A stretch of DNA of 64,000 nucleotides, from assembly GCA_963769425.1 (NCBI GenBank), contig CAVYLP010000006.1, forward strand, positions 32,001 through 96,000. Reading direction: 5' to 3'. Of this stretch, positions 20,126-46,853 are shown piece after piece. The notes beneath the pieces were generated by a model. That model made no database searches. It saw only the letters and a list, made by a program, of their open reading frames with translations, and was not told the DNA's origin. Both the position numbers and the translations under genes were made by a program. How positions within the stretch are numbered: position 1 is the first letter of the stretch; each line of letters begins with the position of its first letter. The stretch is from Candidatus Bathyarchaeota archaeon (lineage in GTDB: Archaea; Thermoproteota; Bathyarchaeia; TCS64).

Positions 20126-22486
20126 CTAAGAAAGCTCCTCGCGGAGTTTCTTCCTCGCGCCCTCATCGATCGGCCCCTCCCCGTCAATGATGTCGTTGAA
20201 GGTCTTGAAGACCCTCTCCAGCTTCCTCCAGTCGGGGACGTAGACCCTGCTGAACCACATCCTGCTGCTGTCTACGCCGTGGTCCTCAAGGGCCCACCTG
20301 TACTCATCCGCCCTCTCCTCAGCAAGCACGTGGGCGTGCCCGTACGGACCTTCATGCGCCGGTGCCTCGAGCAGCATAACCCCGTCCGCCCCGTAGGCGA
20401 AGGCGTAGAGCAGGTGCTCCAGCTTTAGCCTCGCCATCGTCGGCAACGGGATGATCCGGATGCTGCTCGGGTAGGGCAGCCTCGCCAACCCGGCGAGGTC
20501 AACCGCCGTGTACGCGACCTCCTTCTCGACGAAGGCGATTATCTTCAGCTCCGCCTTCGACCCCTCGAGGGCGCCCCTGATCTGGGCCTTGATCTGGGCC
20601 TCGCCTAGACCCTGCTGGTCGAGCGCATTCCTTGGGCAGGAGGGGATGCATGCTCCGCAGCCTGTGCACATGATCTCGTTGACCACTGGCTTTCCCTCCG
20701 AGAGGGTTATCGCCGACTCGGGGCACGGCTCTACACACTTCCCACAACCATCGCATAGTTCAGGGTGCGCTAGCCACGCCTTGTTGGGCTCGATGACCCT
20801 GTCTACGTGGAGGAAGTTCACGACCTTCATGGCAGCGCCCTCCGCCTCAGCAGTTGTAGACTGGATATCCTTTGGACCCACAACGGTGCCAGCAGCGAAT
20901 ATTCCGTCCCGCTTCGTAGCCATCGGGTCGAGCTTCGGATGCCTCTCGAGGACGAACTGGTCCTCATCCACCGGTACGCGCAGCATCTCCGCCAGCTTCA
21001 ACGTCTCCGGCGTCGTCACAATTGGCGGCGCCAACACGACGAGGTCGCTCTGGTACTCAATCATCCTATTGAGCATCATGTCTTCGCTGCGTACTAGCAC
21101 CTGCTCGCCGTCGGGGACGATCTCCGTCACTTTACCCTTCACGAAGTTTGCGCCCTTCTCCTGCGTCGTCCTATAGAACTCCTCGTAGCGTCTACCTGGC
21201 GACCTGATGTCGATGTAGTGTATCCACACGTCGACACCACGATCCCTGAGGAGCTGAGCCTGCTTCATGCTATATAGGCAGCAGACGCGGCTGCAGTGGC
21301 TGCGACCGACCTCGGTGTCCCTGCTTCCCGCGCAGAGGACGAAGGTCACGGTCTTCACCTGCCTACCTGTCTTCGGGACTATGAGCTGGCTCCCCGTTGG
21401 CCCGTTGACGTCGAGTATCCTCTCCATCTCGAGGCTCGTCACCACGTTCGGGTACCGTCCGTAGCCATACTGGATGAGACCCGAGAGGTCGAATAGCTCG
21501 AAGCCCGTCGCCATCACGATGGCGCCTACTTTCAGCTCCTTGGACGATCCCGGGTCATCTAAGTCGATGCACTGGCGTGGGCAGACCTTCGCGCAGGCTC
21601 CGCAGCGGACACAATGTTCGAAGTCAATGGTGTAGACGCTTGGCACACTCTGGGGGAAGGGGATGTACGCGGCCTTGCGCATACCCAGACCCTGATCGTG
21701 CTCGGCGGGCACCTTTGTTGGGCAGACCCGACCACAGGCACCACACCCAATACACTTGGAGATGTCTACGCCGCGTGGGTTGAGCCTGATCTTAGCCTTG
21801 AAGTCACCGGGAACCCCCGTGACCTCCTCCACCTCGGCGTATGTGATGAGGTCAATGTTCCTACTCTGGCTCACCGACGCCATCTTCGGCGTCAGTATGC
21901 ACTGGCTGCAGTCGAGTGTCGGGAAGACCTTCGGGTACTGTATCATGTGACCCCCGATGCTTGGGCGCTTCTCGACGAGGTGGACCTTCATCCCGAACTC
22001 GCTGAGGCGCAGGCTCGTCGTGATACCCGCGACGCCTCCGCCGATGACGAGAGCCTCTGGGACGACCTTCATCCTCTTCGACTCGAGCGCCACCGACTCC
22101 TTCGCGCGGGCGACCGCCCCCCTGATGAGGTCCATCGTCTTCAGAGTCGCGCCCTCGTGGTCCTCCTTATGTACCCAGCTACACTGCTCACGGACGTTCA
22201 CCATCTCAAGGAATGCGGGGTTGACCCCCTTCTCCGCGAGATTGCTTAGGAACGTCTCCCTGTGCATCTTCGGCGTACAGCAGGCGAGCACGACTCTGTC
22301 GAGGTGCTGCTTCTCGACGGCGTCCTTGATGGCGTCGACGCTCGGCTTACTGCATAGGTACCTCTCCTTCTTAATGTAGGCGACTTCGGGTTTCAACGTC
22401 TCAACGACGCGGTCTGTCTCGACAACGTCACCGATGTTTCCGCCGCACTCGCAGAGCCAGACGCCAATCCTAGGCGAATCAGTCAT
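20126..22486 (-). CDS. hdrA: heterodisulfide reductase subunit A fused to a cysteine-less MvhD-like domain
   Basis: N-terminal CECG/EQCSWVH, IGGGVAG FAD site, FPTLDCSQC, CSRVCC, two ferredoxin domains, C-terminal AGLARLPYP...GADGV MvhD fold. Confidence 0.92.
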   Translation of the reverse strand: MTDSPRIGVWLCECGGNIGDVVETDRVVETLKPEVAYIKKERYLCSKPSVDAIKDAVEKQHLDRVVLACCTPKMHRETFLSNLAEKGVNPAFLEMVNVREQCSWVHKEDHEGATLKTMDLIRGAVARAKESVALESKRMKVVPEALVIGGGVAGITTSLRLSEFGMKVHLVEKRPSIGGHMIQYPKVFPTLDCSQCILTPKMASVSQSRNIDLITYAEVEEVTGVPGDFKAKIRLNPRGVDISKCIGCGACGRVCPTKVPAEHDQGLGMRKAAYIPFPQSVPSVYTIDFEHCVRCGACAKVCPRQCIDLDDPGSSKELKVGAIVMATGFELFDLSGLIQYGYGRYPNVVTSLEMERILDVNGPTGSQLIVPKTGRQVKTVTFVLCAGSRDTEVGRSHCSRVCCLYSMKQAQLLRDRGVDVWIHYIDIRSPGRRYEEFYRTTQEKGANFVKGKVTEIVPDGEQVLVRSEDMMLNRMIEYQSDLVVLAPPIVTTPETLKLAEMLRVPVDEDQFVLERHPKLDPMATKRDGIFAAGTVVGPKDIQSTTAEAEGAAMKVVNFLHVDRVIEPNKAWLAHPELCDGCGKCVEPCPESAITLSEGKPVVNEIMCTGCGACIPSCPRNALDQQGLGEAQIKAQIRGALEGSKAELKIIAFVEKEVAYTAVDLAGLARLPYPSSIRIIPLPTMARLKLEHLLYAFAYGADGVMLLEAPAHEGPYGHAHVLAEERADEYRWALEDHGVDSSRMWFSRVYVPDWRKLERVFKTFNDIIDGEGPIDEGARKKLREELS

Positions 22487-22494
22487 TCAGATCC

Positions 22495-24150
22495 CTACAG
22501 TATGTTCAACTTATGCTCGAGCGTCTTCTTGCCCCTGTACTCAGGTAGCAGTATTGGCGCCTTCCGTGTAGTCTTGATTCCGGCCTCCTTTAGCCACCTG
22601 TCGTAGCGGTCGAGGTGTGCGAGTGTTAGCTTCCCCACATGCGCAGTCTTCGCACGCTCTGCAGCATTCTTGCCAGCCCTGCGCCCGAATACGTAGAGGT
22701 CAAGCTGGCTGTTACCCATGAGCCTGTTCTTCCCGTGGACACCTCCGCAGACCTCCCCGGCGCATAACAGCCCAGGGACATTCGTCTCAGTGTTGGGATT
22801 GATCTCTACCCCGCCATTCTGGTAGTGGAGGGTCGGGAAGACGAGTATGGGTTCCTTCCTGATGTCGATGCCGAATTTTTTGTAGTTGCGGAACATTGCA
22901 GCGAATTCTTTCTCTACAGTGCCTGGTCCCGTGACTATCTCGATCATAGGGGTGTCGAGCCAGACAGCGCGCATACCCGTAGGGGTAACTATGCCGTTGT
23001 TCCTCTCGTAGCACTCCCTAATGAAATTCGATGACTCTATGTCGCGGGGCTCGAGGTGGTAGACGAAGAGTTCACCGTCCTTGTTGACGGGCAGCGCGCC
23101 CCTACCGCGGAGCTTCTCAGTAGCGAGCTGACCAACTATCTGCTCGGGGTAAGCTGCTCCTGTAGGGTGATACTGTGTTGAGTCAAGGTCCCTCAGGATC
23201 GCGCCCGTGCGGTAAGCCATGACTATTCCGTCGCCTGTCGCGCCGTAGTGATTCGTGGTTGGGAAGCCTTGTATGTGGAGTCTACCGAAGCCGCCTGTGG
23301 CTAGCACAGTGGACTTCGCCCTAGCGATTCGGTACTCCTCAGTCTCCATGTCAAGCAGGATAGCGCCAGCGACCTGATCCTTATCATCCATGAGGAAGTC
23401 CACAGCGCTTGTGAACTCAACATTACTAATGCCACGGTTGATGAACTCGTCGACGAGTACGCGTGTGATCTCCAAGCCGGTGTAATCCTTGCAGCTGTGC
23501 ATGCGCCTCCGACTGGTGCCCCCACCCGCTATCTCGAGCAGGGAACCGTCAGGGTTCTTGTCGTACATGACGCCGAGCTCCTCATGCCACTTGATCACGT
23601 CTGGGGCGTCTTTGACGAGTGCTTCGACTAGATCCGGCTTATTCGCGTAGTGACCTCCACCTATGACGTCTAGGTAGTGGATCGAGGGGTTGTCGATGGG
23701 TGAGTCTGCGGCCTGAATACCGCCTTGGCTCATCTTCGAGTTGGCGTCGCCGAGTCTTAGCTTCTGGACCATCAGAATCTGGTCCACTGGAACGCCGCTC
23801 TCTTGCGCGAGTAGCGCCGCGCTAAGACCCGCCCCGCCCGCGCCGATTATAAGCACGTCGACGTCGTAGTCAATGTGGCTTAGGTCGATTTCCTTGGGGT
23901 TTATGACTGAGTGCGACTCGATGATGTCGGCGACCTCGTTAGGGACGATCATCCCCTTGCTTGGGCCGATGGCTACTGCGCGTTTGAAGTTGGGTTTCCA
24001 GTCTGGGTGGAAGTGCTCGAGGATAGACTGGCGCTCTTCCGCTGTCATCGCCGGGATGCCGTGGGATTTGATGTTGCTAGCCCGTTTCTCGGCGACCATC
24101 CGGAGGGATTCCTGCATGTACTCGGGGTATCCTGTTGTGTAGCCGCTCAT
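22495..24150 (-). CDS. fumarate reductase/succinate dehydrogenase flavoprotein-like subunit (TfrA-like, non-covalent FAD)
   Basis: IGAGGAG, ANSKMSQGG (no flavinylated His), QYHPTG, EPRD, HYQNGG, NRLMGNS. Confidence 0.88.
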   Translation of the reverse strand: MSGYTTGYPEYMQESLRMVAEKRASNIKSHGIPAMTAEERQSILEHFHPDWKPNFKRAVAIGPSKGMIVPNEVADIIESHSVINPKEIDLSHIDYDVDVLIIGAGGAGLSAALLAQESGVPVDQILMVQKLRLGDANSKMSQGGIQAADSPIDNPSIHYLDVIGGGHYANKPDLVEALVKDAPDVIKWHEELGVMYDKNPDGSLLEIAGGGTSRRRMHSCKDYTGLEITRVLVDEFINRGISNVEFTSAVDFLMDDKDQVAGAILLDMETEEYRIARAKSTVLATGGFGRLHIQGFPTTNHYGATGDGIVMAYRTGAILRDLDSTQYHPTGAAYPEQIVGQLATEKLRGRGALPVNKDGELFVYHLEPRDIESSNFIRECYERNNGIVTPTGMRAVWLDTPMIEIVTGPGTVEKEFAAMFRNYKKFGIDIRKEPILVFPTLHYQNGGVEINPNTETNVPGLLCAGEVCGGVHGKNRLMGNSQLDLYVFGRRAGKNAAERAKTAHVGKLTLAHLDRYDRWLKEAGIKTTRKAPILLPEYRGKKTLEHKLNIL

Positions 24151-24836
24151 TTGATCTTCATCTCCCTAGTGTTGTACTTCTTTGAGATCGTTGCCTTGTC
24201 CATCTTCTTCATTTCCTCGATCTCTGCATCGTACTTGCCCTCCTTCACTTCCTCGCACCTCTTAAGGACGTGTTCGGTTGGCCCCTCGAGGTACTTCGAC
24301 TCGAGGCGGCGAGCCAGCTGCCCAACATTATAGGGAACTATCTCAGCCGGGCACCTCATCGCACAGAGTCCACAACCTAGGCAGTCGAAACTGAGCTTCG
24401 CCGCTTGGGCGATGTCACCGCGCAGAGCCGCCTGGACGTAGTCCATGACCATGATGTCCTGCGGGCACGCCTTCGTGCAGGTGTTGCACGCGAGGCACCT
24501 AGCGATCTCAGGATAGTATTCCAGGAAAGTGTTCGCCTCGGCCTTGAGTTCGTTGATCTTGTAGGTCACCTTCTCCTGTGGGCTGAAGGGGATTTGTGCT
24601 ATGATCATGCCTTCCTCGACTATCTTCTGGCAGGCGAGGGCACCTTGTAGCTTGTAGCTTCCTCTCTTCCTGTAGACGGTGGCGCATGCGCCACAGAAGC
24701 CTCCCCTGCACCCAGCGCCCCTCCTGAACTGGTGGCCAGAGTACTCCATAGCCTTCATTATAGTTAGGTCCGCCGGGACTCTCTGCTTCTTGCCCATCAC
24801 GTAGATGGTGACCAACTTGATGTCATTCTCAGTCAT
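24147..24836 (-). CDS. FrdB/TfrB-like iron-sulfur subunit
   Basis: CRGGFCGAC...LAC [2Fe-2S]; CLACNTCTKACP and CLGCGLCAMRCP. Confidence 0.85.
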   Translation of the reverse strand: MTENDIKLVTIYVMGKKQRVPADLTIMKAMEYSGHQFRRGAGCRGGFCGACATVYRKRGSYKLQGALACQKIVEEGMIIAQIPFSPQEKVTYKINELKAEANTFLEYYPEIARCLACNTCTKACPQDIMVMDYVQAALRGDIAQAAKLSFDCLGCGLCAMRCPAEIVPYNVGQLARRLESKYLEGPTEHVLKRCEEVKEGKYDAEIEEMKKMDKATISKKYNTREMKIK

Positions 24837-24837
24837 T

Positions 24838-25731
24838 CTAAATCAGCCCCTTCTCCCTGAGCAGAGGCCTCGGGTCGGGCTTGTTCATCCCGAGAGCCGT
24901 CTCATCCTCCCCGAGGCCGAAGGCGAGAGCCATCAGCTGGGTGAAATAAACGATCGGTATACCGTTGAACTTTGGATACTTCTTAGCGACCTCGGTCTGC
25001 CTGTTGCCGAGGTTGAACTCGCATAGCGGGCACGCAGTAGCCACGATATCAGCACCAGCGGCCTGTGCCTGCGTCAAGATCCTGTTGCTCAGATCCGCCA
25101 CCACGTCGACCATGTGGACGGTGTGGTAACTCCCGCAGCACTTCTGCTTGTAGCCGAACTCGACGACGTCTGCGCCGAGGGCCTTGAGCAGGTCCTCGAA
25201 GATGCGTGGGTTGTCAGCGTTGTCTATCCCTATGCCGCGGGGCCTTAGCAGGAGGCATCCGTAGTAGGGGGCGACCTTCAAACCTTTCAGGGGCTTGGAG
25301 ACGCGTGCCTGGACCTTGTCCCAGCCATGGACGCGCAGCGTCTCCAGCAGGTGCTCTACTTCGACCTGTCCGCTGTAGACGCTCGCCTCGTTGTTCATGC
25401 TCTCTCTGACCTTCCCCGCCTTGTCCGAGTCGGCGTTGAAGGCCTGGTTACTCCTCTTCAGTGTGTTGTAGCACATCGCGCAGAGGGCGACAACCTTCTT
25501 CTCGTCAACAATACCACTCTGCTGCGCCTCCTCAACCCGAAGCAGGTTCCTCAAGGGCGCTAGGTGGTGCATCACGTCGTCCTTCGCGAGGGCGTGGACG
25601 GTTCCGCAGCAGTTCCAGCGGGGGAGCTCGACGAGGTTTATGCCCAGCGCCTTAGTTGAGGCCCTGGTGCTTATGTCGAACTCCTTCGCCGTCGTCTTCA
25701 ACGTGCAGCCTGGATAATATGCGACATTCAT
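24838..25731 (-). CDS. hdrB: heterodisulfide reductase subunit B
   Basis: YYPGC, WNCCG, CAMC, YYGC, KCCG, CPLC: two CCG domains. Confidence 0.92.
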   Translation of the reverse strand: MNVAYYPGCTLKTTAKEFDISTRASTKALGINLVELPRWNCCGTVHALAKDDVMHHLAPLRNLLRVEEAQQSGIVDEKKVVALCAMCYNTLKRSNQAFNADSDKAGKVRESMNNEASVYSGQVEVEHLLETLRVHGWDKVQARVSKPLKGLKVAPYYGCLLLRPRGIGIDNADNPRIFEDLLKALGADVVEFGYKQKCCGSYHTVHMVDVVADLSNRILTQAQAAGADIVATACPLCEFNLGNRQTEVAKKYPKFNGIPIVYFTQLMALAFGLGEDETALGMNKPDPRPLLREKGLI

Positions 25732-25738
25732 GGCATGA

Positions 25739-26221
25739 TCACGCGGTTAGCTTCCTTAGACTACTGATGATCGCGACTTGTGGCAACTCTCTCAGCTGCT
25801 CGTCGCTGAGTTCATCAAGCGCTACACGGTCGTACTTCTTCCTCAGAACAAGTTGGCGAAGAGACTCCATTACGTTGGCGATGTCGATACCGCGGGGGCA
25901 CCTGACCTCGCAGTTGAAACATGTCGTGCAGACCCAAATCGTCTTAGAATCCAATGCCTCCTCGAGGCCAAGCTGCACCATTCGGATTACCTTGCTTGGA
26001 AGGTAGTCCATCTCCTGAGTCATGGGGCAGCCTGAGCTACAGGCACCGCATTGGAAGCAGAGCTCGACCTTCTCGCCACTCAGCTCCTTCACCCGGTCCC
26101 TGAAGACCTTGTTTTCGGGGGTCGGGTGAATGAAGAGTCCCTGTTTTTCCGAAGACATCTCAGAAGCTATTACGCTGTGTATATTATACCTTTTCTTAGA
26201 AATGACACGGATAGGCTTCAT
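25739..26221 (-). CDS. hdrC: heterodisulfide reductase subunit C (start probably ~26158)
   Basis: CFQCGACSSGCP, IWVCTTCFNCEVRCPRGID. Confidence 0.9.
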   Translation of the reverse strand: MKPIRVISKKRYNIHSVIASEMSSEKQGLFIHPTPENKVFRDRVKELSGEKVELCFQCGACSSGCPMTQEMDYLPSKVIRMVQLGLEEALDSKTIWVCTTCFNCEVRCPRGIDIANVMESLRQLVLRKKYDRVALDELSDEQLRELPQVAIISSLRKLTA

Positions 26222-26248
26222 TAAAATGGGTTATTAGTTGGGCTCTAT

Positions 26249-26929
26249 TTACTGCCCGGAGCTGAATTGGGGGTTTTCGAAGACCATATTGAAGCCCTCA
26301 GATCCCCAGCCATCGGTTATCCTATGGGCTGTGGCGGTGATGCCGTAGTCTTGTCCACTGAAGGAGTAACCTATGATATAGTTGAATGGGCTTTCGTCGA
26401 CCGAGAAACCCACACGATCCTCTTGGACCTCGATGTCGTAATGATGCTTCAATTCGTCATTCTGAAATAGGTCAACCTCTTTGAGGATATAGTTCTGACC
26501 ATTGGGCGTGTAGATTATGTAGCCCATGACCTTGCCATCACTTACACTCATCCTGATGCCGAACTCGAACTTGTTGTAAGGCTGGACGGATGCAAAGACC
26601 GCGTACTCATCAAGCCTGTTCTTACCCCCGGAACCGACCATCGCAACATCAAACGAGAGTTTTTCGATTGAATAGATGCTTTTAGTGCAAACATCTGAGA
26701 CTGTAAGTTGCTCTCGGGGACGTGTGTGAGATGGCATAGCGAGCATCCAGCTGTCCACAGGGGTACTCTGAAGACGAGGCCTCGGGGCAAGGGCTGACCA
26801 ACTGGCAAAATCCGAGGCGGGGATATTCGTCATAGATTCTCTAGTGGCTGTGACTGAATCTGAAGTAGTTATGTTTGCGTTAATGGATGAGCCTTCGAGG
26901 ATGACTGTCATGAAGAGTAGGATGATCAT
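26249..26929 (-). CDS. hypothetical secreted beta-rich protein
   Basis: Hydrophobic N-terminus, beta-strand-like composition (HHYDIEV...FSVD). Confidence 0.55.
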   Translation of the reverse strand: MIILLFMTVILEGSSINANITTSDSVTATRESMTNIPASDFASWSALAPRPRLQSTPVDSWMLAMPSHTRPREQLTVSDVCTKSIYSIEKLSFDVAMVGSGGKNRLDEYAVFASVQPYNKFEFGIRMSVSDGKVMGYIIYTPNGQNYILKEVDLFQNDELKHHYDIEVQEDRVGFSVDESPFNYIIGYSFSGQDYGITATAHRITDGWGSEGFNMVFENPQFSSGQ

Positions 26930-27180
26930 CGCGTGGAAGGTGCTTGATAGAGCCTTCGAGTCCCTCCTAAGTTTATCAGCCTCTCTTTGATAGTTTAACC
27001 CAATCTCCTCTTAAAAAATTGATTTTTCCTTAAGAACTTCACTTGAGTAATCTAAATATTTTATCGATCAACAATCCGTATACATCATCAATAAGTAACA
27101 CTAACTCTTGTTTTACCTAGCTGATAATGATTATTCATCCGCCTCATGTTTTAAATCGGCGCTGGTTGGTGTTCATCTGA

Positions 27181-27789
27181 GTGAGAAGGGGTTTGGAGTA
27201 TCACCTCAAAACACCGGTCCCCGAGGCTGAGCTGAGGAAGCTCAAAGTCGGAGACGTAATCTACCTAACCGGGACCGTGATAACGGCGCGGGACGAGGCA
27301 CATAGCAAGGCCTTAGAACTGCATGATGAGGGAAAGAAGCCGCCAGTGGACTTCCGGGGGGTCGGCGTCTTCCACTGCGGCCCAATAATGAGGAAGAATG
27401 GGAAGATTTGGGAAGTGGTCGCCGCGGGTCCCACTACGAGCACGAGGATGGAGATATTCGAGGACAAGTTCATTGAGGCGTTCAGGCCCGCGGTCATAAT
27501 CGGTAAAGGCGGCATGGGGGAGAGAACCTCTAAGGCGTGCCAGAAGTTCGGTTGCGTCTACGCCGCTTTCACTGGTGGGGCAGCCCTCCTAGCGGCTAAG
27601 GGGATAAAGAAGGTCAGGGACGTCTTTTGGCTGGAGGAGTTGGGGATGCCAGAGTGCCTATGGGTGTACGACGCGGAGGACTTCGGCCCCCTCATCGTGG
27701 CCATCGACTCTCACGGCGGTAACCTCACCGCTGATGTTGGCAAGAAGGTGAACGCCAACAGGGACAGGATCATCGCGGAGATGAAGTGA
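27181..27789 (+). CDS. class I fumarate hydratase/tartrate dehydratase beta subunit
   Basis: LKVGDVIYLTG, TARDEAH, AGPTTSTRME, GKGGM, VAIDSHG. Confidence 0.92.
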   Translation: MRRGLEYHLKTPVPEAELRKLKVGDVIYLTGTVITARDEAHSKALELHDEGKKPPVDFRGVGVFHCGPIMRKNGKIWEVVAAGPTTSTRMEIFEDKFIEAFRPAVIIGKGGMGERTSKACQKFGCVYAAFTGGAALLAAKGIKKVRDVFWLEELGMPECLWVYDAEDFGPLIVAIDSHGGNLTADVGKKVNANRDRIIAEMK

Positions 27790-28659
27790 ATGTTAGACAA
27801 GGTAGTTGAAGACACGGCCGTTGAGCTCCTGCGGATCGCCGCCACTGAACTTCCCGTTGAGTATGTGCGTGAGATGGAGAGGCTCATGAAGGGGACGAAG
27901 GGCGCAACGGGGAAGGCGCAGCTGAAGAGCATACTGGACGACGCCTCACTGGCGAGGAAGAATAGTTGGCCAATGTGCCAGGACACGGGGGTCGTCGCCT
28001 TCATGGTCAAGGTTGGGGACAAGTTCCCACTCAAGTCGGAGCTGAAGGAGATACTCACGAAGGCCACGAAGCGGGCGACGGAGGAGATACCTATACGGCC
28101 CAACGCCGTCGACATGCTGAAGGGCAATACGAACGACAACACCGGCGCCTTCATCCCGATAATCAACTGGGAGATGGTCCCTGGCAACGAGCTTGAGATC
28201 ATCGCCATGCCAAAGGGGGGTGGTAGCAGTAACGTCGCCAACCACCGGATGCTCAAGCCCGGCCTAGGGATGAAAGGTGTGAAACAGTTCGTCATCGAGG
28301 CGGTCGCAGCGGCTGGGTCGCAGGGGTGCCCGCCCTACTTCGTCGGCGTGGGCATCGGGGGCAGCGAGGACCTCTGCATGCTCCTCGCGAAGAAGGCGCT
28401 CCTCAAGCCCTTCAAGGTTAGGAACCCGGATCCAAAGCTGGCGGCCATCGAGGAAGAGCTTCTGGGGAAAGTGAACGAGTTGGGCATAGGCGCTATGGGC
28501 CTCGGTGAGGGGCCGACAGCCCTCGATCTCCACATCGAGATGGCAGCGAGGCACCCAGCGTCCCTGCCCGTGGGTATAGTCATCAGCTGCTGGGCCCTCC
28601 GCCACGCGAAGGCAACCATAGGCCCACGCGGCGGAGTCAAGATAGACAAGAGCGCCTAG
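27790..28659 (+). CDS. class I fumarate hydratase/tartrate dehydratase alpha subunit
   Basis: PMCQDTG, KGGGS, GCPPY, HPASLPV, SCWA. Confidence 0.92.
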   Translation: MLDKVVEDTAVELLRIAATELPVEYVREMERLMKGTKGATGKAQLKSILDDASLARKNSWPMCQDTGVVAFMVKVGDKFPLKSELKEILTKATKRATEEIPIRPNAVDMLKGNTNDNTGAFIPIINWEMVPGNELEIIAMPKGGGSSNVANHRMLKPGLGMKGVKQFVIEAVAAAGSQGCPPYFVGVGIGGSEDLCMLLAKKALLKPFKVRNPDPKLAAIEEELLGKVNELGIGAMGLGEGPTALDLHIEMAARHPASLPVGIVISCWALRHAKATIGPRGGVKIDKSA

Positions 28660-39943: not shown

Positions 39944-41319
39944 TTAATCCCATTTTAAACCGCAGTCCTTGAACTCGGCTTTAACCTTGGTTATGAGCGA
40001 TTCGTACTCGGGCTCGGTCTATGTTTTTGCAGGTCGTAGCACTCAGTGATGAGCTTTCCCTTCTCAGGGGTCGGGGATGTCGTCAACTTTTCGATTATAC
40101 CCTTAAACATTGGGTAGACATCGCCCCTCTTTACGCCAGCTCTTATCGCTGCATCTGAGGCATCTATCATCAACTCCACGTCCGCCGGGGTCTGCCCCCC
40201 GTTCATCCGGCTCCTGCTGACCCTCGGCGTGTATAGATTAGCGCCATTCACAGCTGCTTCAACACTGCGTAGAATCAGCTCCTCCAAGTGACTCTCTGTG
40301 CAGAGCTCGGATACGGGTATGGGCCAATGCATTGGGATGCCCTTACAGTTACGTATCGTTGCCTGGTAGACGACTGACCTTGCGAAGTTCACGGGGAACA
40401 TTGCGCGCTTCATGCCACTGATGTGGTTGAAGTGCTCTACCCCGTTGTAGTAGAGATTGTCGCGGTAGACCATCCAGGCAATAATCGTCTTAGCCAGGCT
40501 CTCGATTATAGCTCCACCTGGCCCCCCTGCAAATCCGCCCACTATCCCGAAGCTACCGCTTATTCCGAAGTATCCGTGGCTTTGAAGAATAAGGGCCGCG
40601 GTGATCAGGTCGTATTGGACCTTCACATCAGGTAGAACCGATAGAAGGACGCCGTCTGTTGGCCTTAGCCCAGCTACGGGGTCGATGGTGGCGAGGAATG
40701 AGGAGGCCTCCGTGCTGATTGGGTAGTAGACTATGGCTGCGCCTGGTCTCCCTGCTTTCCTGATTCCCTCTCTGAGCCACGCCACCTGACGCTTAGAGGC
40801 ATAGGCCTCCAGTGGCTCCCCGTATAACTCGTATCCATCGATGGCGGGGAGGTTGAAGCCTTCGAGGAAGTCGAGTCGGGGGATCATCGCGAAGTTCTGG
40901 ACGACGATGTTAGCCAGGTCCTCGGTGAAGGGCGCGTGGTGGCCCGGCGCGATGTTGAGGGGCTCCTTTCCTTCGATCTTGTGCTGGTGCCAGATCCTCG
41001 CGTCTTTTCCCTCGCCCATTATGACCTCGCTCTGCATAGCTTTTATGGCTTCATTCACCTCTTCCTCTGAGAACCTGACAACTCGCTCGCTGTCTATGCA
41101 TAGGCAGCCTACATCGACCACGAACCGTACAGCTGCTTGCCACGCCGAGTCGGCTAAGCTGTTGTCTACGTTCAGCCAGTTAGACGGGTCGTTTGGAATA
41201 TCTATTTTATACTCTTTCTCCAGTTCCTGCATTTTCTTGAAGAGGGCGATGTCCCAATCCTTGATTGTCTTCTTGGGCCCTCTCCGCATACGATCAACGA
41301 CTTCAACCAGGCTGATCAT
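39944..41319 (-). CDS. MtmB-family (monomethylamine:corrinoid-like) methyltransferase, pyrrolysine-free; frameshift ~40010
   Basis: AGRPG, GGFAGGP, GKLITECYDL; alternative frame restores EYESLITKVKAEFKDCGLKWD*. Confidence 0.85.
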
Positions 41320-41462
41320 TATACTCAAATCAATATCCATGTTCGACTTAATAGCATTAGATGAAGCATCATCTAATTCACATAGAAGAATCCTATTTGA
41401 GAGCTTCACTTACCCGTTAATATGAAATACGGATTCGATTGTTAGACTGTCAGTGAGACTTC

Positions 41463-42134
41463 TTGACTGGTGAGGAACAGGTTCTGCAGAAACTGTATGA
41501 GGCAGTGTTAAACTTCGACTCCACAGCCGCAGAGAATGCCGCGAAGGAGGCTATGGCCCTGAACATGGATCCGATCAAGGCCATCGAGGACGGACTTGCC
41601 AAGGGGCTCAGGGAGATTGGCGACAAGTTTGAGCGTGGCGAACTCTACCTCCCCCACCTCATCATGGGCGCGGACGCTATGGAAGCGGCCATCAAGATCC
41701 TAGAGGGGCACATGACTCAAGCTGGTTTAGATGCAACAAGCAGAGGAACAGTCGTTATCGGAACCGTGGAGGGTGACATCCACGACCTAGGTCTCCGCAT
41801 AGTCTCATCGATGCTTCGGGCCAACGGTTTCAAGGTCTACGATCTGGGCTTCAACACGAAGAGTCTAGACTTCATTGAGAAGGCGAAGGAGGTCAACGCG
41901 GACATAATCGCGGTCTCATCGCTGATGACGACCACCATGCCTTTCATGAAAGACCTCATCGAGTCGCTGGAGGCTTCCGGGCTCCGGAGCAAGTTTTTGG
42001 TGGTCGTTGGTGGTGGTCCAGTCACAGAGCAGTGGGCGAAGGAGATCGGCGCAGACGGATATGGACGAGACGCAGCTGAGGCAGTTCGGGCTGCGAGAGA
42101 GTTGATGAAGCGCAAGAGGGGATCGGCACCTTGA
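41463..42134 (+). CDS. corrinoid protein (MtmC/MtaC-like)
   Basis: GTVEGDIHDLG, SSLMTTT, VGGGP, IGADGY. Confidence 0.95.
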   Translation: MTGEEQVLQKLYEAVLNFDSTAAENAAKEAMALNMDPIKAIEDGLAKGLREIGDKFERGELYLPHLIMGADAMEAAIKILEGHMTQAGLDATSRGTVVIGTVEGDIHDLGLRIVSSMLRANGFKVYDLGFNTKSLDFIEKAKEVNADIIAVSSLMTTTMPFMKDLIESLEASGLRSKFLVVVGGGPVTEQWAKEIGADGYGRDAAEAVRAARELMKRKRGSAP

Positions 42135-43546: not shown

Positions 43547-43574
43547 CTGCACCGGACAACAACAATACTGTTAA

Positions 43575-45496: not shown

Positions 45497-45562
45497 CCTG
45501 TTTATTATCTTTTTTTCAGAAAAATTCATCGCGAATCCACGGTGCGCCGAGGCTGAATCACG

Positions 45563-46853
45563 ATGGGTTTACTCAACAGGATGAGGGCGAGACCGCTCCC
45601 GGTCATTCTCTTCACAGTCTTCGTTGACCTAATAGGCTATGGGATAGTCTTACCGATTGAGCCCCTACTGCTCGCCGACCCCTCATCGAAGTATTACCTG
45701 ATTCCGCAGGGGCTGACCGTAAATGAGGGGTACATCATCCTCGGACTCCTGATCGGCGCGTACTCGATCGCGCAGTTCATCACCACCCCGATCATTGGGC
45801 AGGTCTCGGATCACAGGGGGAGAAAGAACCTTCTACTGTTCTCGCTCGCGGGGATAGGTGTCTCTTACCTCATGTTCGTCGTAGGCATCTCCCTGAGGAG
45901 CATCCCCCTCCTATTTGTGGCGCGTATAATTATGGGGGCGACGGGTGGGGACGTCGCCATCGTCCAGGCGGCGACAGCCGACATCAGCAGGCCGGAGGAT
46001 AGGGTGAAGAACTTCGCACTCGTGGGCGCCGCGTTTGGACTGGGCTTCGTAGTCGGACCCGTCCTCGGCGGGATCCTCTCCGACTCGACCCTCGTTAGCT
46101 GGTTCGACGCGACTACGCCGTTCTGGTTCGCGGCTGGTCTGAGCGTTGCGAACATCGTCTCGGTCCTCGTTCTCTTCCCCGAGACACTGAAGACGTTGAA
46201 AAAGGATTCACGCGTCATCTGGCGGCGCGCGCTCGTCGACATAGTTCACGCCTTCTCGATAGGGGAGCTAAAGATACTCTACGCTTCGGCGCTCCTATTT
46301 TACGCTGGCTTCGCCTTCTTCGCAACCTTCGCCTCCGTCTTCCTCATAAATAAGTTCGGTTTCACTCAGACGGGGATCGGGACCTTTTTCGCCTGGGTGG
46401 GGGCATGGATAACGATCTCGCAGGTCCTAATCACGGGCAGGCTCTCGCGGCGCTTCACGGAGTATCAGGTCCTTAAGATTCAGCCTCGTCGCGATGGGGG
46501 TTCTTCTTCTACTCTTCAACCTGCCGACGCAAGGCTGGGAGCTATACCTTCTCGTGCCCTTCTTCTCGACGCTGATCGGACTCTCATTCGCCAACAACGT
46601 CTCCATAGTGAGCCGCTCGGTGGGCCCCGAGATTCAGGGAGAGGTACTCGGAATCAATGCTAGTGTTAGGTCCCTTGGCATGGGCATCCCGCCCCTCCTT
46701 TCAGGGTTCATCGCGGCCAGCCTGACCCCCGAGGCACCCGTGATCGTCTCAGGCATCGTGGCGCTGATATCGGGGCTCATCTTCCTCGTCTTCTATAAGC
46801 CAAGCCCTGATCAGAGAAAGATTTCCAGGAGTAAAAAAAACTCAGGTAAATGA
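45563..46853 (+). CDS. MFS efflux transporter (TetA-like; frameshift ~46478)
   Basis: GQVSDHRGRK, GFVVGPVLGG; last TMs lie in the 46494-46853 frame. Confidence 0.85.

What the first reader, a model, noticed from the sequence alone, without database searches (positions are those of the whole stretch)
20126..28659. HdrABC operon with an embedded fumarate reductase module and adjacent fumarase
Seen: tightly packed hdrC-hdrB-frdB-like-frdA-like-hdrA, with no hydrogenase, Fdh or Flx gene and no Sdh membrane anchor. A two-subunit class I fumarase lies about 1 kb away. The flavoprotein keeps the dicarboxylate-site residues (HPT, PRD, HY, RL.GNS) but lacks the FAD-linking His. The Fe-S subunit has [2Fe-2S] plus two four-Cys clusters and no CCG domain. 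Known: HdrA performs flavin-based bifurcation; methanogen thiol:fumarate reductase has CCG domains fused to TfrB; related sdh-like genes occur near some bacterial hdr-flx clusters. Inference: a soluble Hdr-fumarate reductase complex linking the fumarate/succinate couple to thiol-disulfide and ferredoxin chemistry in a probable non-methanogen.
Basis: partly seen in the sequence, partly recalled or inferred. Interest (0 to 1): 0.75.

Follow-up and report, generated by a model that had tools for sequence, protein, structure and literature searches.

The report
Hdr-linked soluble fumarate reductase operon
An uncultured sediment archaeon (Bathyarchaeia) encodes a membrane-free fumarate reductase wired into a heterodisulfide-reductase-type electron-splitting module, a widespread enzyme system that has been proposed in genome papers but never tested at the bench.

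Summary
Five tightly packed minus-strand genes (hdrC, hdrB, an SdhB-like Fe-S gene, an FrdA-like flavoprotein gene, and hdrA fused to mvhD) face a divergent two-subunit class I fumarase. The genome is a Bathyarchaeia MAG in which McrA was not found.

The order is kept in 18 of 18 relatives' loci as far as contigs reach. The Fe-S/flavoprotein pair recurs in 79 of 80 loci from many archaeal and bacterial phyla. It usually sits with HdrB/HdrC, often with fumarase or TCA genes, and with varying donor modules (Flx, Mvh, NfnB-like).

The flavoprotein keeps all FrdA catalytic residues. It lacks the covalent-FAD His and the C-terminal domain, carries a conserved ~95-aa N-extension, and falls outside the NadB and FrdA/SdhA clades. 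A natural Fe-S–flavoprotein fusion exists. A complex model docks the Fe-S subunit on HdrB's N-terminal CCG motif (0.82; best control 0.00).

Best reading: a soluble, probably electron-bifurcating fumarate reductase whose donor is unknown here.

The idea is already in print (P. thermosuccinogenes 'succinate operon', tubeworm symbionts, Ca. Celaenobacter), and this scan has found the system at least eight times on other DNA. I found no biochemical test. This is a new variant of a known kind, of moderate interest.

The parts
25739..26221 (-). hdrC-like gene (160 aa; two [4Fe-4S] motifs). The true start may lie downstream, because distant orthologues align only from about residue 36.
   Evidence: C55, 58, 61, 65, 98, 101, 104 and 108 are invariant in 56 orthologues. 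The C-terminal tail (135-159) touches the Fe-S subunit in the complex model.
24838..25731 (-). hdrB-like gene (297 aa; two CCG motifs, the ligands of two non-cubane [4Fe-4S] clusters in solved HdrB)
   Evidence: TIGR03288 scores 155 bits and the MFR SdhE model NF042965 scores 162 bits, both below cut-off. All ten Cys (9, 41, 42, 84, 87, 159, 198, 199, 234, 237) are invariant in 56 orthologues. Residues around C9 and C41/42 contact the Fe-S subunit in the model.
24147..24836 (-). SdhB/FrdB-like Fe-S subunit (229 aa; [2Fe-2S] plus two 4-Cys ferredoxin motifs; no CCG domain)
   Evidence: Twelve Cys are invariant. The profile matches E. coli FrdB only distantly (1kf6_B, E 3e-5). The gene lies within 1.2 kb upstream of the flavoprotein gene in 79 of 80 loci and is fused to the flavoprotein in P0122.
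22495..24150 (-). FrdA-like flavoprotein (551 aa). It has a conserved ~95-aa N-terminal extension, the FAD/capping domains with the full fumarate-site residues, no covalent-FAD His and no C-terminal helical domain.
   Evidence: The AF2 model has pLDDT 92.6 and pTM 0.91. The best fold match is E. coli FrdA 1kf6_A (E 3.1e-36, TMq 0.69).
20126..22486 (-). hdrA fused to mvhD (786 aa; HdrA2-type architecture)
   Evidence: NF040770 HdrA2 scores 805 bits (cut-off 1100), aligned over 6-771 of 786. FlpD domain at 649-767. In the loci examined, the fusion accompanies the Frd module only in Bathyarchaeia.
27181..27789 (+). class I fumarate hydratase, beta subunit (202 aa), divergent from the hdr-frd operon
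   Evidence: PF05683; TIGR00723 scores 218 bits, above cut-off. Adjacent and divergent in 14 of 18 relatives' loci; 3 of the other 4 stop at a contig end.
27790..28659 (+). class I fumarate hydratase, alpha subunit (289 aa)
   Evidence: PF05681; NF004885 scores 304 bits, above cut-off.
26249..26929 (-). ORF226 in the enlarged hdrC-fumB spacer. It is an accessory ORF or not a gene, and is not part of the conserved system.
   Evidence: No Pfam or NCBIfam hit. No match in the 18 relatives' loci. Found in only 1 of 40 other genomes searched (G006, 58% identity).

Best explanation
The five genes encode one soluble iron-sulfur flavoprotein complex that reduces fumarate to succinate. The fumarate is made next door from malate by the class I fumarase.

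Shown by sequence: the 551-aa flavoprotein has the complete FrdA-type fumarate site with non-covalent FAD, and its partner is an SdhB-like [2Fe-2S]+2x[4Fe-4S] protein.

Inferred wiring: flavoprotein FAD <- Fe-S subunit <- HdrB (two non-cubane clusters) <- HdrC <- FAD of HdrA. In this wiring the fumarate/succinate couple (about +30 mV, recalled textbook value) takes the place of, or sits directly behind, the heterodisulfide as the high-potential acceptor of an HdrA-type flavin-based electron bifurcation. The other electron goes to ferredoxin.

Net reaction (inferred): 2 DH2 + fumarate + Fd(ox) -> 2 D + succinate + Fd(red).

The donor D is not encoded in the operon. Three candidates stand:
- F420H2 or NAD(P)H acting directly on the HdrA-MvhD fusion, as reported for HdrA2B2C2 of Methanosarcina.
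- H2 through the Mvh-type hydrogenase that is encoded next to this operon in relatives.

Physiologically the unit most likely serves as an electron sink. It may also be an entry to succinyl-CoA in malate, fumarate or aspartate metabolism. Fumarase flanks one side, and in most relatives a malic enzyme gene follows hdrA.
For: (1) Anatomy and residues.

(2) Fold: the AF2 model has pLDDT 92.6, and the top Foldseek hit is E. coli FrdA (1kf6_A, E 3.1e-36, TMq 0.69).

(3) Conservation in relatives:
- An orthologue is present in 27 of 33 genomes of the same order and in 0 of 8 genomes of other orders of the class.
- The five-gene order holds in 18 of 18 loci as far as contigs reach, with fumarase adjacent in 14 of 18.
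- A malic enzyme gene lies directly after hdrA in 7 of 8 relatives checked.

(4) Wider distribution, over 80 loci from Bathyarchaeia, Theionarchaea, Thermoplasmatota, Desulfurococcales, Chloroflexota, Fibrobacterota, Spirochaetota, WOR-3, Bipolaricaulota, Deltaproteobacteria, Nitrospira and many gut Clostridia:
- The Fe-S gene lies upstream of the flavoprotein gene in 79 of 80.
- HdrB and HdrC are both present at >=70% coverage in 48 of 80.
- Fumarase is present in 24 of 80.

(5) Context is always C4-dicarboxylate or TCA metabolism:
- mdh and fumAB plus an Asp-Al_Ex transporter (L062).
- sucCD plus korAB (L074).
- aconitase and IDH with sucCD (Nitrospira, L114).
- korABG (L041).
- malic enzyme (L046).
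- methylmalonyl-CoA epimerase and carboxyltransferase (L042).

(6) Donor modules vary around a constant hdrC-hdrB-FeS-flavoprotein core:
- Flx-like NAD-binding proteins (L062, L074).
- MvhD with an MvhG-like protein (L046).
- PyrK-like plus NfnB/GltD-like proteins (L051).
- No donor module at all (L039).
This is the pattern expected of a bifurcating Hdr with a fixed acceptor branch.

(7) Co-inheritance:
- The window's HdrB is 37-48% identical to Frd-linked HdrB of other phyla, but only 26-31% to the three HdrB paralogues tested in its own genome.
- HdrC is 38-46% against 31-36%.
- HdrA is about 41-42% identical to both groups.

(8) Physical link: in P0122 (727 aa) the Fe-S subunit is fused to the flavoprotein.

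(9) Complex model, with the Fe-S subunit as partner against HdrB, HdrC and HdrA 560-786:
- Score 0.82, best of 3 controls 0.00. That mark was reached by 116 of 157 solved complexes and 2 of 215 mismatched pairs. These counts hold only roughly, because my own alignments and four chains were used.
- The runs agree in at least 76% of contacts, and the partner's pLDDT is at least 76.
- Replacing HdrB with an unrelated protein gave 0.00.
- Contacts join the loop carrying the first Cys motif of the Fe-S subunit (residues 112-118, 160, 163) to HdrB residues 8-9 and 38-43, which hold C9 and C41/C42.
- Sequence search found no solved like complex. HdrB matches only methanogen HdrB chains, and the Fe-S subunit matches PDB chains only distantly.

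(10) All cluster-ligand Cys are invariant in 56 orthologues of each of the three Fe-S proteins.
Against: - No enzyme of this kind has been purified, as far as the searches show. Direction, donor and coupling to ferredoxin are therefore all inferred.
- HdrB keeps both complete CCG motifs in every orthologue. That would also fit an obligatory thiol/disulfide intermediate.
- The operon has no donor module. In canonical Mvh-Hdr the MvhD cluster is the entry for the mid-potential donor, and here nothing is seen to feed it.
- F420 status is unclear: CofD was found but CofH was not (genome 91% complete).
- In the complex model HdrA's C-terminal part makes only 3 confident contacts with the Fe-S subunit. 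The model therefore says nothing on how HdrA joins.
- The complex job is unlike its calibration set.
- The malic enzyme neighbour would equally fit an oxidative route (succinate -> fumarate -> malate -> pyruvate).
- The genome also holds a canonical SdhA and a TfrA-like paralogue, so this need not be its only fumarate/succinate enzyme.
Confidence: 0.55

Rival explanations
1. A split thiol:fumarate reductase combined with a disulfide reductase. HdrB's CCG site oxidises a dithiol and passes the electrons through the Fe-S subunit to fumarate, as in the Tfr reaction. The dithiol could be an unknown low-molecular-weight thiol pair or a lipoylated GcvH-like protein. HdrA and HdrC then re-reduce the disulfide by bifurcation. 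The thiol/disulfide is an obligatory free or protein-bound intermediate, not merely a wire.
For: - The Fe-S N-terminus, HdrC and HdrB together tile the TfrB model NF004898: 20-83 to 23-86, 28-131 to 122-222, and 2-249 to 263-471.
- All ten CCG Cys are invariant.
- In Theionarchaea locus L039 the four genes occur with no hdrA nearby.
- GcvH and a lipoate ligase sit beside the Mvh/HdrD/HdrA cluster of this genome.
- Genome papers call such pairs 'thiol:fumarate reductase' (PMC6315080, PMC8542988; passages read).
Against: - CoM and CoB are cofactors of methanogens, and McrA was not found here.
- The same module occurs in Clostridia, Nitrospira and Chloroflexota, for which I know of no CoM/CoB (recalled).
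- The model puts a cluster loop of the Fe-S subunit directly against the N-terminal CCG cluster region, which would allow direct electron transfer.
- The scores against TfrA (313 bits, cut-off 718) and TfrB (31 bits, cut-off 385) are far below their cut-offs.
Confidence: 0.2
2. The complex works in the oxidative direction. It acts as a soluble succinate dehydrogenase in which reduced ferredoxin helps (confurcation) to push electrons from succinate onto a mid-potential acceptor. This would feed succinate -> fumarate -> malate -> pyruvate during amino-acid or 2-oxoglutarate catabolism.
For: - Fumarase and, in 7 of 8 relatives, a malic enzyme flank the operon.
- SucC is present in the genome.
- The Culexarchaeia paper proposes such an oxidative route through TfrA, FumAB and MaeA (PMC9723716; passages read).
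- Hdr-type bifurcation is reversible in principle (established knowledge).
Against: - Thermodynamics, from my own estimate with recalled standard potentials: the mean of +30 mV (succinate) and about -450 mV (ferredoxin) is about -210 mV. That is too positive to reduce NAD+, F420 or protons under ordinary conditions.
- In bacteria the same module sits in succinate-forming or reductive-TCA contexts: L062 with mdh and an exporter-type permease, and Nitrospira L114.
- The P. thermosuccinogenes operon belongs to a succinate producer (PMC7282089; passages read).
Confidence: 0.12
3. The flavoprotein is not a fumarate/succinate enzyme. It is instead an L-aspartate oxidase (NadB) or a reductase for another enoate, so the fumarase neighbourhood is misleading.
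For: The NadB model TIGR00551 scores 264 bits, the same as the SdhA/FrdA model TIGR01812. NadB shares the His/Arg active-site residues (established knowledge). E. coli NadB 1knp is a strong fold match (rank 42, E 4.8e-31).
Against: - In the tree (86 rows, LG+G4, quick search) a branch with SH-aLRT 100 separates the N-extension clade from the side that holds the E. coli NadB clade (12 rows, 99) and the FrdA/SdhA clade.
- All NadB models score below their cut-offs.
- NadA was not found in the 91% complete genome.
- NadB needs no Fe-S partner, yet here the partner is fused in P0122 and adjacent in 79 of 80 loci.
- The context is fumarase, TCA and dicarboxylate-transporter genes.
Confidence: 0.05
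4. The genes are neighbours, but the Hdr module and the Frd pair do not form one complex. They would be two independent enzymes under one promoter.
For: Neighbouring genes alone are weak evidence for binding. The complex score comes from a model, not a measurement. Some loci have the Fe-S/flavoprotein pair without Hdr genes in reach (Nitrospira L114 and L115).
Against: - HdrB and HdrC are co-inherited with the Frd pair across domains.
- The genes overlap or abut.
- The complex model scored 0.82 against a best control of 0.00.
- The Frd pair has no other predicted electron entry: no anchor, no NAD-binding domain.
Confidence: 0.06

Closest known systems
'Succinate operon' of Pseudoclostridium thermosuccinogenes: fumarate hydratase, Flx-Hdr and a two-gene 'novel fumarate reductase' proposed to bifurcate (PMC7282089, passages read). 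That paper cites the preprint 10.20944/preprints201912.0288.v1, which I did not see.
   Same: Both have a soluble two-subunit fumarate reductase next to HdrABC and class I fumarase, and both are proposed to couple fumarate reduction to ferredoxin reduction. Clostridial loci with that layout (for example L062) hold orthologues of all five window proteins: flavoprotein 50-56% identical, Fe-S subunit 44-53%, HdrB/C/A about 28-45%.
   Different: The window has no FlxABCD (NADH input) genes. MvhD is fused to HdrA. The gene order is hdrC-hdrB-FeS-flavoprotein-hdrA rather than hdrB-hdrC-hdrA-flx...-FeS-flavoprotein. The host is an archaeon. I did not hold the P. thermosuccinogenes sequences themselves, so orthology to that strain is inferred from the published description.
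tfrAB genes interspersed with flxABCD-hdrABC (and korABCD) in reductive-TCA clusters of tubeworm symbionts and Thioflavicoccus mobilis (PMC6315080). Also the TFR + OGOR + fumarase + SucCD + Mvh + Hdr cluster of Ca. Celaenobacter (PMC8542988). Passages of both were read.
   Same: An Hdr module and a membrane-free fumarate reductase lie in one cluster, and the authors propose a functional link or a shared complex. The same kinds of context are seen here in L041, L046, L074 and L114.
   Different: Those clusters carry donor modules (Flx or Mvh) and further TCA genes. The Bathyarchaeia unit is a minimal five-gene operon plus fumarase, and in relatives a malic enzyme. No paper that I found describes the Bathyarchaeia form.
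Thiol:fumarate reductase TfrAB of Methanothermobacter (Heim et al. 1998; not read, recalled and seen only in reference lists)
   Same: It is a soluble fumarate reductase whose electron-input side is built from a [2Fe-2S] domain, 2x[4Fe-4S] and two CCG domains. The Fe-S N-terminus, HdrC and HdrB of the window tile the TfrB model.
   Different: TfrB is a single polypeptide. Here the same parts are split over three proteins, with two extra [4Fe-4S] clusters, and HdrA is added. The TfrA model scores 313 bits against a cut-off of 718, and the flavoprotein lacks the C-terminal domain that the model covers (matched positions 6-410 of 546).
HdrA2B2C2 of Methanosarcina acetivorans (PMC5296606; abstract and passages read)
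   Same: HdrA is fused to MvhD, with HdrB and HdrC and no hydrogenase or Fdh partner. The best NCBIfam hit of the window's HdrA is the HdrA2 model, aligned end to end. A plain hdrC-hdrB-hdrA(mvhD) paralogue operon exists in this genome (L120).
   Different: The score is below the model cut-off (805 against 1100). Two extra genes (Fe-S subunit and flavoprotein) are inserted between hdrB and hdrA. [quoted passage not shown] Neither is established here.
Type E succinate:quinone oxidoreductase / methylmenaquinol:fumarate reductase (SdhA-SdhB-SdhE). Known to me from the NCBIfam model names and from recall.
   Same: A flavoprotein and an Fe-S subunit hand electrons to, or take them from, a CCG-domain (HdrB-like) subunit. 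The window's HdrB scores slightly higher on the SdhE model NF042965 (162 bits) than on HdrB TIGR03288 (155 bits). The complex model puts the Fe-S subunit on HdrB.
   Different: All scores are far below cut-off (500 bits for SdhE). No quinone or membrane link is expected. HdrC and HdrA are present.
SdhA gene co-located with HdrA2B2C2, Ehe hydrogenase, CdhA and GcvH in Culexarchaeia (PMC9723716; passages read)
   Same: A TACK archaeon with an SdhA-like gene next to an HdrA2-type Hdr. GcvH is suggested as a disulfide carrier, and a GcvH gene also lies near the Mvh/Hdr cluster of this genome.
   Different: That cluster is built around a membrane-bound hydrogenase and was read as succinate or CO oxidation. 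I did not compare sequences.

Membership tests
Thiol:fumarate reductase TfrAB | TfrA-type flavoprotein (NCBIfam NF004900, cut-off 718 bits) | tested here: not met
   313 bits. The match covers only model positions 6-410 of 546, so the C-terminal part is missing.
Thiol:fumarate reductase TfrAB | TfrB: one polypeptide with [2Fe-2S], 2x[4Fe-4S] and two CCG domains (NF004898, cut-off 385 bits) | tested here: not met
   The parts are split over three proteins: Fe-S subunit 30.8 bits, HdrC 41.9 bits, HdrB 40.7 bits, each on a different part of the model.
Thiol:fumarate reductase TfrAB | Uses CoM-SH plus CoB-SH as electron donor | not testable with these tools
McrA was not found in the genome. CoM/CoB biosynthesis was not examined.
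HdrABC / HdrA2B2C2 heterodisulfide reductase | HdrA with FAD domain, Fe-S domains and (for HdrA2) a fused MvhD | tested here: inconclusive
   The architecture is met: NF040770 aligns 6-771 to 1-772 of 777, and FlpD lies at 649-767. The score of 805 bits is below the 1100 cut-off.
HdrABC / HdrA2B2C2 heterodisulfide reductase | HdrB with two complete CCG motifs (ten Cys) | tested here: met
   C9, 41, 42, 84, 87, 159, 198, 199, 234 and 237 are present and invariant in 56 orthologues. The family models nevertheless score below cut-off (TIGR03288: 155 against 345).
HdrABC / HdrA2B2C2 heterodisulfide reductase | Reduces a heterodisulfide | not testable with these tools
Flx-Hdr-linked 'novel fumarate reductase' (P. 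thermosuccinogenes type) | Two-subunit soluble Frd (flavoprotein with N-extension, plus Fe-S subunit) encoded with HdrABC and fumarase | tested here: met
   Clostridial loci of that layout hold orthologues of all five proteins.
Flx-Hdr-linked 'novel fumarate reductase' (P. thermosuccinogenes type) | FlxABCD NADH-input module in the operon | tested here: not met
   There is no NAD_binding_1/FAD_binding_6 or Fer4_22 protein in the operon, in the flanking ORFs or among the 47 other window ORFs scanned. MvhD is fused to HdrA.
Complex II flavoprotein (SdhA/FrdA) | Covalent-FAD histidine | tested here: not met
   Asn aligns with E. coli FrdA His44. The position carries no His anywhere in the N-extension clade (alignment A1).
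Complex II flavoprotein (SdhA/FrdA) | C-terminal domain PF02910, and family score TIGR01812 of at least 567 bits | tested here: not met
   There is no PF02910 hit. TIGR01812 scores 264 bits. In the tree the protein falls on the other side of a branch with SH-aLRT 100.
Complex II flavoprotein (SdhA/FrdA) | Catalytic His/Arg/Thr-Glu residues of the dicarboxylate site | tested here: met
   The equivalents of H232, T244/E245, R287, H355 and R390 are kept. H328, E345, R348, R369, H442 and R476 are invariant in 101 sequences.
L-aspartate oxidase NadB | Family score (TIGR00551, cut-off 452.75 bits) and clade membership | tested here: not met
   264 bits. The protein lies outside the E. coli NadB clade. 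NadA was not found in the genome.
Type E SQR / MFR (SdhABE) | SdhE-type CCG subunit (NF042965, cut-off 500 bits) | tested here: not met
   162 bits. This is a resemblance in wiring only.

The most novel reading that the evidence does not exclude
In Bathyarchaeia, and by extension in the many non-methanogens that carry this module, fumarate rather than any disulfide is the physiological high-potential acceptor of HdrA-type electron bifurcation. HdrB's two non-cubane clusters would act as a through-wire from HdrC to an SdhB-like subunit docked on the N-terminal CCG domain. The five-subunit Bathyarchaeia complex, with MvhD fused to HdrA, would then be a self-contained machine without a donor module. 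It would take F420H2 or NAD(P)H directly at HdrA and make reduced ferredoxin while dumping electrons on fumarate.
Probability: 0.35. Interest if true: 0.7.

Novelty: new variant of a known kind. Interest (0 to 1): 0.45.

Why it matters
Hdr-type genes are abundant in non-methanogenic anaerobes, and their acceptor is mostly unknown. If fumarate is the acceptor, abundant sediment archaea and many gut and rumen Clostridia could gain reduced ferredoxin, and so energy or CO2-fixing power, from a membrane-free fumarate reduction. That would change how succinate formation and reductive TCA branches are budgeted.

The Bathyarchaeia form is the smallest version seen here: five subunits and no separate donor module. 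That makes it a convenient target for heterologous expression and structure work.

The value is tempered. The concept is already in print, and this scan has already met it on other DNA.

Tried and rejected
Readings rejected
- ORF226 (26249-26929) as a sixth operon gene. It has no family hit, no match in 18 relatives' loci, and was found in only 1 of 40 other genomes.
- NadB reading.

Steps that led nowhere
- Trees: two runs of the full 113-row set with the mixture model did not finish. The tree I report uses 86 rows. I dropped 27 of the 55 unnamed representatives (every second one) and used LG+G4 with the quick search, so it carries SH-aLRT support only.
- TfrA reference: I could not obtain a bona fide methanogen TfrA sequence. 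The control genomes of the genome search give no loci. The TfrA comparison therefore rests on the HMM score and on an in-genome TfrA-like paralogue.
- RNA evidence: no RNA holder was listed.
- The search of earlier findings by place returned nothing.

Literature searches with no useful hit
- 'thiol fumarate reductase' + 'heterodisulfide reductase' + 'archaea': 0 papers.
- 'bifurcating fumarate reductase': 0 papers.
- 'thermosuccinogenes' + 'fumarate reductase' + 'bifurcat': only PMC7282089.
- The 2020+ search for 'fumarate reductase' + 'electron-bifurcating' + 'HdrABC' + 'succinate' listed 14 papers, none of which by title or abstract start reports a purified enzyme.
- PMC10579422 (passages) was irrelevant. 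PMC5861303 and PMC7325909 (passages) hold nothing on this arrangement.

Limits of the literature check
- Supplements of the cited papers were not opened. Text S1 and Fig. S5 of PMC6315080 may hold more on the proposed Flx-Hdr-Tfr complex.
- Appel et al. 2021 (BBA) and Ramos et al. 2015 were seen only as references.

Full report
WHAT IS THERE

On the minus strand of the window lie five genes with gaps of 7, 1, -4 and 8 nt:
- an hdrC-like gene (25739-26221),
- an hdrB-like gene (24838-25731),
- a 229-aa Fe-S protein gene (24147-24836),
- a 551-aa flavoprotein gene (22495-24150),
- a 786-aa hdrA gene (20126-22486).

Pfam and NCBIfam give the following:
- HdrC has 2x[4Fe-4S].
- HdrB has two CCG domains.
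- The Fe-S protein has a plant-type [2Fe-2S] domain plus two ferredoxin 4-Cys motifs and no CCG domain.
- The flavoprotein has FAD_binding_2 at residues 98-481 and no Succ_DH_flav_C domain.
- HdrA aligns end to end with the HdrA2 model. This includes a C-terminal MvhD/FlpD domain (649-767).

Divergently, 960 bp away, lie the beta (27181-27789) and alpha (27790-28659) subunits of a class I fumarase.

Aligned to E. coli FrdA, the flavoprotein has Asn in place of the covalent-FAD His44. It keeps H232, T244/E245, R287, H355 and R390.

WHOSE GENOME

The closest homologues of the flavoprotein (73-96% identical, 546-551 aa) are all labelled Bathyarchaeota/Bathyarchaeia where a name exists. McrA was not found in the 91% complete assembly, so a non-methanogen is likely.

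CONSERVATION IN RELATIVES

- An orthologue-grade match (at least 61% identity) is present in 27 of 33 genomes of the same order, G000 included. The six without it are 62-85% complete. None was found in 8 genomes of other orders of the class.
- In 18 loci fetched from relatives, the order hdrC-hdrB-FeS-flavoprotein-hdrA holds in 18 of 18 as far as the contigs reach.
- The divergent fumarase pair is adjacent in 14 of 18. Three of the other four stop at a contig end.
- In 7 of 8 relatives checked, a malic enzyme gene follows hdrA in the same direction.
- In G000 that malic enzyme gene lies about 28 kb away, next to further hdrB/hdrC genes. The intervening DNA, which includes window 1-20125, has lower G+C (0.40-0.48 against 0.57-0.60). 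This suggests an insertion or rearrangement in this lineage.
- ORF226, in the enlarged hdrC-fumB spacer, is not conserved and is not part of the system.

THE FLAVOPROTEIN IS A FAMILY OF ITS OWN

- It scores below every curated cut-off: TfrA 313 of 718, SdhA/FrdA 264 of 567, NadB 264 of 453.
- Its ~95-aa N-terminal extension is conserved from Bathyarchaeia to bacteria. H48, P49 and D50 of an 'HPD' motif are invariant or nearly so in 101 sequences.
- The extension folds with high confidence in an AlphaFold2 model (pLDDT 92.6, pTM 0.91).
- The best fold match is E. coli FrdA (1kf6_A, E 3.1e-36, TMq 0.69, 33% identity). NadB 1knp comes at rank 42.
- In a tree of 86 rows (452 columns, LG+G4, quick search, SH-aLRT only), a branch with support 100 separates two sides. 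One side has 50 rows: all 38 N-extension proteins plus 12 of 14 short (~400 aa) relatives. The other side has 36 rows. It holds the E. coli NadB clade, the E. coli FrdA/SdhA clade and the two other paralogues of this genome.
- The tree lacks an authentic methanogen TfrA, which I could not obtain.
- NadA was not found in the genome.
- The genome also has a true SdhA (TIGR01812, 744 bits) beside an aspartate ammonia-lyase, and a TfrA-like 528-aa protein.

DISTRIBUTION AND CONTEXT ELSEWHERE

A scan of one genome per species with an alignment of the N-extension family returned 80 loci at 46-72% identity. They come from Bathyarchaeia, Theionarchaea, Thermoplasmatota, Desulfurococcales, Chloroflexota, Fibrobacterota, Spirochaetota, Aminicenantes, WOR-3, Bipolaricaulota, Deltaproteobacteria, Nitrospira and many gut or rumen Clostridia.

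- The Fe-S gene lies within 1.2 kb upstream of the flavoprotein gene in 79 of 80. The exception starts inside the gene.
- HdrB and HdrC are both present at 70% coverage or more in 48 of 80.
- Fumarase is present in 24 of 80. Many of the loci without these genes are short contigs.

Pfam annotation of ten representative loci shows a constant hdrC-hdrB-FeS-flavoprotein core with varying additions:
- Acutalibacteraceae (L062): mdh, hdrB, hdrC, hdrA, mvhD, two Fe-S proteins, a PyrK-like NAD/FAD/[2Fe-2S] protein (together an Flx-like set), FeS, flavoprotein, fumA, fumB, an Asp-Al_Ex permease and an H+-PPase.
- Desulfurococcales (L046): fumarase, hdrA, mvhD, an MvhG-like protein, hdrC, hdrB, FeS, flavoprotein and malic enzyme.
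- Thermoplasmatales (L051): PyrK-like and NfnB/GltD-like proteins, a ferredoxin, hdrA, FeS and flavoprotein.
- Chloroflexaceae (L041): a double HdrA, mvhD, hdrC, hdrB, FeS, flavoprotein and korABG.
- Fibrobacterota (L042): methylmalonyl-CoA epimerase and carboxyltransferase in front.
- Deltaproteobacteria (L074): Flx-like genes, sucCD and korAB.
- Nitrospira (L114): aconitase, IDH, FeS, flavoprotein and sucCD.
- Theionarchaea (L039): the four core genes only.

The metabolic context is always C4-dicarboxylate or TCA chemistry, while the donor modules are interchangeable. MvhD fused to HdrA accompanies this module only in the Bathyarchaeia loci.

EVIDENCE FOR ONE COMPLEX

(i) P0122 (727 aa) is a natural fusion of the Fe-S subunit to the flavoprotein.

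(ii) The window's HdrB is 37-48% identical to Frd-linked HdrB of other phyla and domains, but only 26-31% to the three HdrB paralogues tested in its own genome. HdrC is 38-46% against 31-36%. HdrA is about 41-42% identical to both groups. HdrB, HdrC, the Fe-S subunit and the flavoprotein therefore travel together, while HdrA is generic. A plain hdrC-hdrB-hdrA(mvhD) operon also exists in this genome (L120). The window operon looks like that unit with the Frd pair inserted.

(iii) All cluster-ligand cysteines are invariant in 56 orthologues of each Fe-S protein.

(iv) A complex model was run with the Fe-S subunit as partner against HdrB, HdrC and HdrA 560-786.
- It scored 0.82, with the best of 3 controls at 0.00. 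That mark was reached by 116 of 157 solved complexes and 2 of 215 mismatched pairs. The counts hold only roughly here, since my own alignments and four chains were used.
- The runs agree in at least 76% of contacts, and the partner's pLDDT is at least 76.
- With HdrB replaced by an unrelated protein the score was 0.00.
- The confident contacts join the Fe-S subunit's first Cys-motif loop (112-118, 160, 163) and residues 131-141 to HdrB 8-14, 38-43 and 54-61, which lie around C9 and C41/C42 of the N-terminal CCG motif. They also reach the conserved C-terminal tail of HdrC (135-159). Only three residues of the HdrA C-terminal part are involved.
- By sequence search there is no solved like complex. 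HdrB matches only methanogen HdrB chains, and the Fe-S profile matches PDB chains only distantly.
- This supports binding but does not show it.

HOW IT MOST LIKELY WORKS

Shown: a complete FrdA-type site with non-covalent FAD, an SdhB-like partner, intact HdrB, HdrC and HdrA cofactor motifs, and a dicarboxylate context.

Inferred: electrons run from HdrA-FAD to HdrC, to the HdrB non-cubane clusters, to the Fe-S subunit, to the flavoprotein FAD and on to fumarate. HdrA sends the second electron to ferredoxin.

This resembles type E succinate:quinone reductase wiring (SdhA-SdhB-SdhE). The window's HdrB scores marginally higher on the SdhE model than on the HdrB model (162 against 155 bits, both below cut-off). 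It also resembles a TfrAB that has been split and enlarged.

With recalled standard potentials (fumarate +30 mV, ferredoxin about -450 mV) and donor potentials given in PMC5861303 (F420 -360 mV), the forward reaction is exergonic and the reverse is not. I therefore favour fumarate reduction.

The donor is open.
- HdrA2 of M. acetivorans takes F420H2 directly, and its authors suggest NADH for non-methanogens (PMC5296606, passages).
- This genome has CofD and one FrhB homologue, but CofH was not found.
- It also has Mvh-type hydrogenase genes, two free MvhD genes, an HdrD-like gene, GcvH and a lipoate ligase at C6:5.5-22.4 kb. In relatives, HdrA-like, MvhD and further hdrB/hdrC genes sit a few kb from this operon.

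With fumarase on one side and malic enzyme on the other, a plausible physiology is dismutation of malate, fumarate or aspartate-derived fumarate. Malic enzyme would supply reducing equivalents, and this complex would be the sink that also yields reduced ferredoxin. This is my inference.

RIVALS

- An obligatory thiol intermediate, i.e. a split Tfr plus Hdr (0.20).
- The oxidative direction with confurcation (0.12).
- Another substrate, or NadB (0.05).
- No common complex (0.06).

Evidence for and against each is given in the Rival explanations section.

WHAT IS KNOWN

- The bacterial form is in print as a hypothesis. PMC7282089 (passages read) describes the P. thermosuccinogenes 'succinate operon': fumarate hydratase, Flx-Hdr, a two-gene fumarate reductase and a putative transporter. 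[quoted passage not shown]
- PMC6315080 (passages) reports tfrAB interspersed with flxABCD-hdrABC and korABCD in rTCA clusters and suggests one complex.
- PMC8542988 (passages) reports TFR, OGOR, fumarase, SucCD, Mvh and Hdr in one cluster in Ca. Celaenobacter.
- PMC9635834 (passages) notes a Tfr syntenic to an Hdr-like complex in Mnemosynellales.
- PMC9723716 (passages) notes SdhA beside HdrA2B2C2 in Culexarchaeia.
- The HdrA preprint 10.1101/2024.09.26.615249 (passages) lists succinate dehydrogenase among STRING partners of HdrA in Firmicutes.
- I found no paper on the Bathyarchaeia form and no biochemical characterisation of any form. The library does not cover most subscription journals.
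- This scan's own notebook holds at least eight earlier findings of the same system on other genomes, with the same prior art. I reached my reading before seeing them. One of them gave me the Celaenobacter lead, which I then checked.

VERDICT

This is a real, strongly conserved operon.
- Kind: known as a published, untested hypothesis.
- This form: a new variant. It is minimal at five genes, has MvhD fused to HdrA, has no donor module, and occurs in an abundant archaeal class.
- Interest: moderate (0.45).

Noticed in passing
window 1-20125, and upstream to G000:C6:23833: About 28 kb of lower-G+C DNA (0.40-0.48 against 0.57-0.60) separates hdrA from the malic enzyme gene, which follows hdrA directly in 7 of 8 relatives. 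The stretch holds a pst/PhoU phosphate transporter, ABC-2 transporters, a 603-aa CARDB/CarboxypepD_reg protein and radical SAM genes. It looks like an insertion or rearrangement in this lineage. The closest relative, G008, also lacks the malic enzyme gene after hdrA.
   Followed up: partly
window 26249-26929 (-): ORF226 fills an enlarged hdrC-fumB spacer (960 bp, against about 30-420 bp in relatives). It has no family hit and was found in only one other genome of 40 (G006, 58% identity, split in two there).
   Followed up: yes
window 39991-46663: A methyltransferase set: two MtmB-family proteins (472 and 471 aa, with no in-frame stop under table 11), a B12-binding corrinoid protein, a RACo-type reductive activase and an MFS transporter. 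This may be a non-pyrrolysine MtmB-like methyl-transfer system in a non-methanogen.
   Followed up: no
G000:C6:5523-22442 (locus L119): A large redox cluster: lipoate-protein ligase, GcvH, HycI protease, MvhA-like and MvhG-like hydrogenase subunits, an HdrD-like CCG protein, two MvhD genes, HdrA-like proteins (898 and 435 aa), two hdrB/hdrC pairs and a malic enzyme. GcvH plus a lipoate ligase beside Hdr genes hints at a lipoyl-protein disulfide as an Hdr substrate.
   Followed up: partly
G000:C4:306313-309521 (locus L011, 6313-9521): A canonical SdhA-type flavoprotein (573 aa; TIGR01812 at 744 bits, above cut-off) lies directly beside an aspartate ammonia-lyase. No SdhB gene stands directly downstream of it. 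This may be an aspartate -> fumarate -> succinate pair.
   Followed up: no
P0122 (727 aa): A natural fusion of the [2Fe-2S]+2x[4Fe-4S] subunit to the N-extension flavoprotein. Its origin is unknown, because the library holds no names.
   Followed up: partly
tree (loci L043/L044, L046/L074/L090, L051/L083): Archaeal and bacterial flavoproteins are interleaved with high support. For example, Thermoplasmata pairs with Spirochaetaceae (100), and Desulfurococcales with Deltaproteobacteria (95). The module seems to move between domains.
   Followed up: no
P0145, P0152, P0156 and 9 further ~400-aa proteins: A sister group of short flavoproteins lacks both the N-extension and the C-terminal tail. The three aligned have 'PET' where FrdA and the window protein have 'TE(K/G)'. 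Their function and context are unknown.
   Followed up: no
window 50296-51438 (-): An NrdD-family ORF of 380 aa matches only positions 232-560 of the 562-position anaerobic ribonucleotide reductase model. It may be truncated or split.
   Followed up: no
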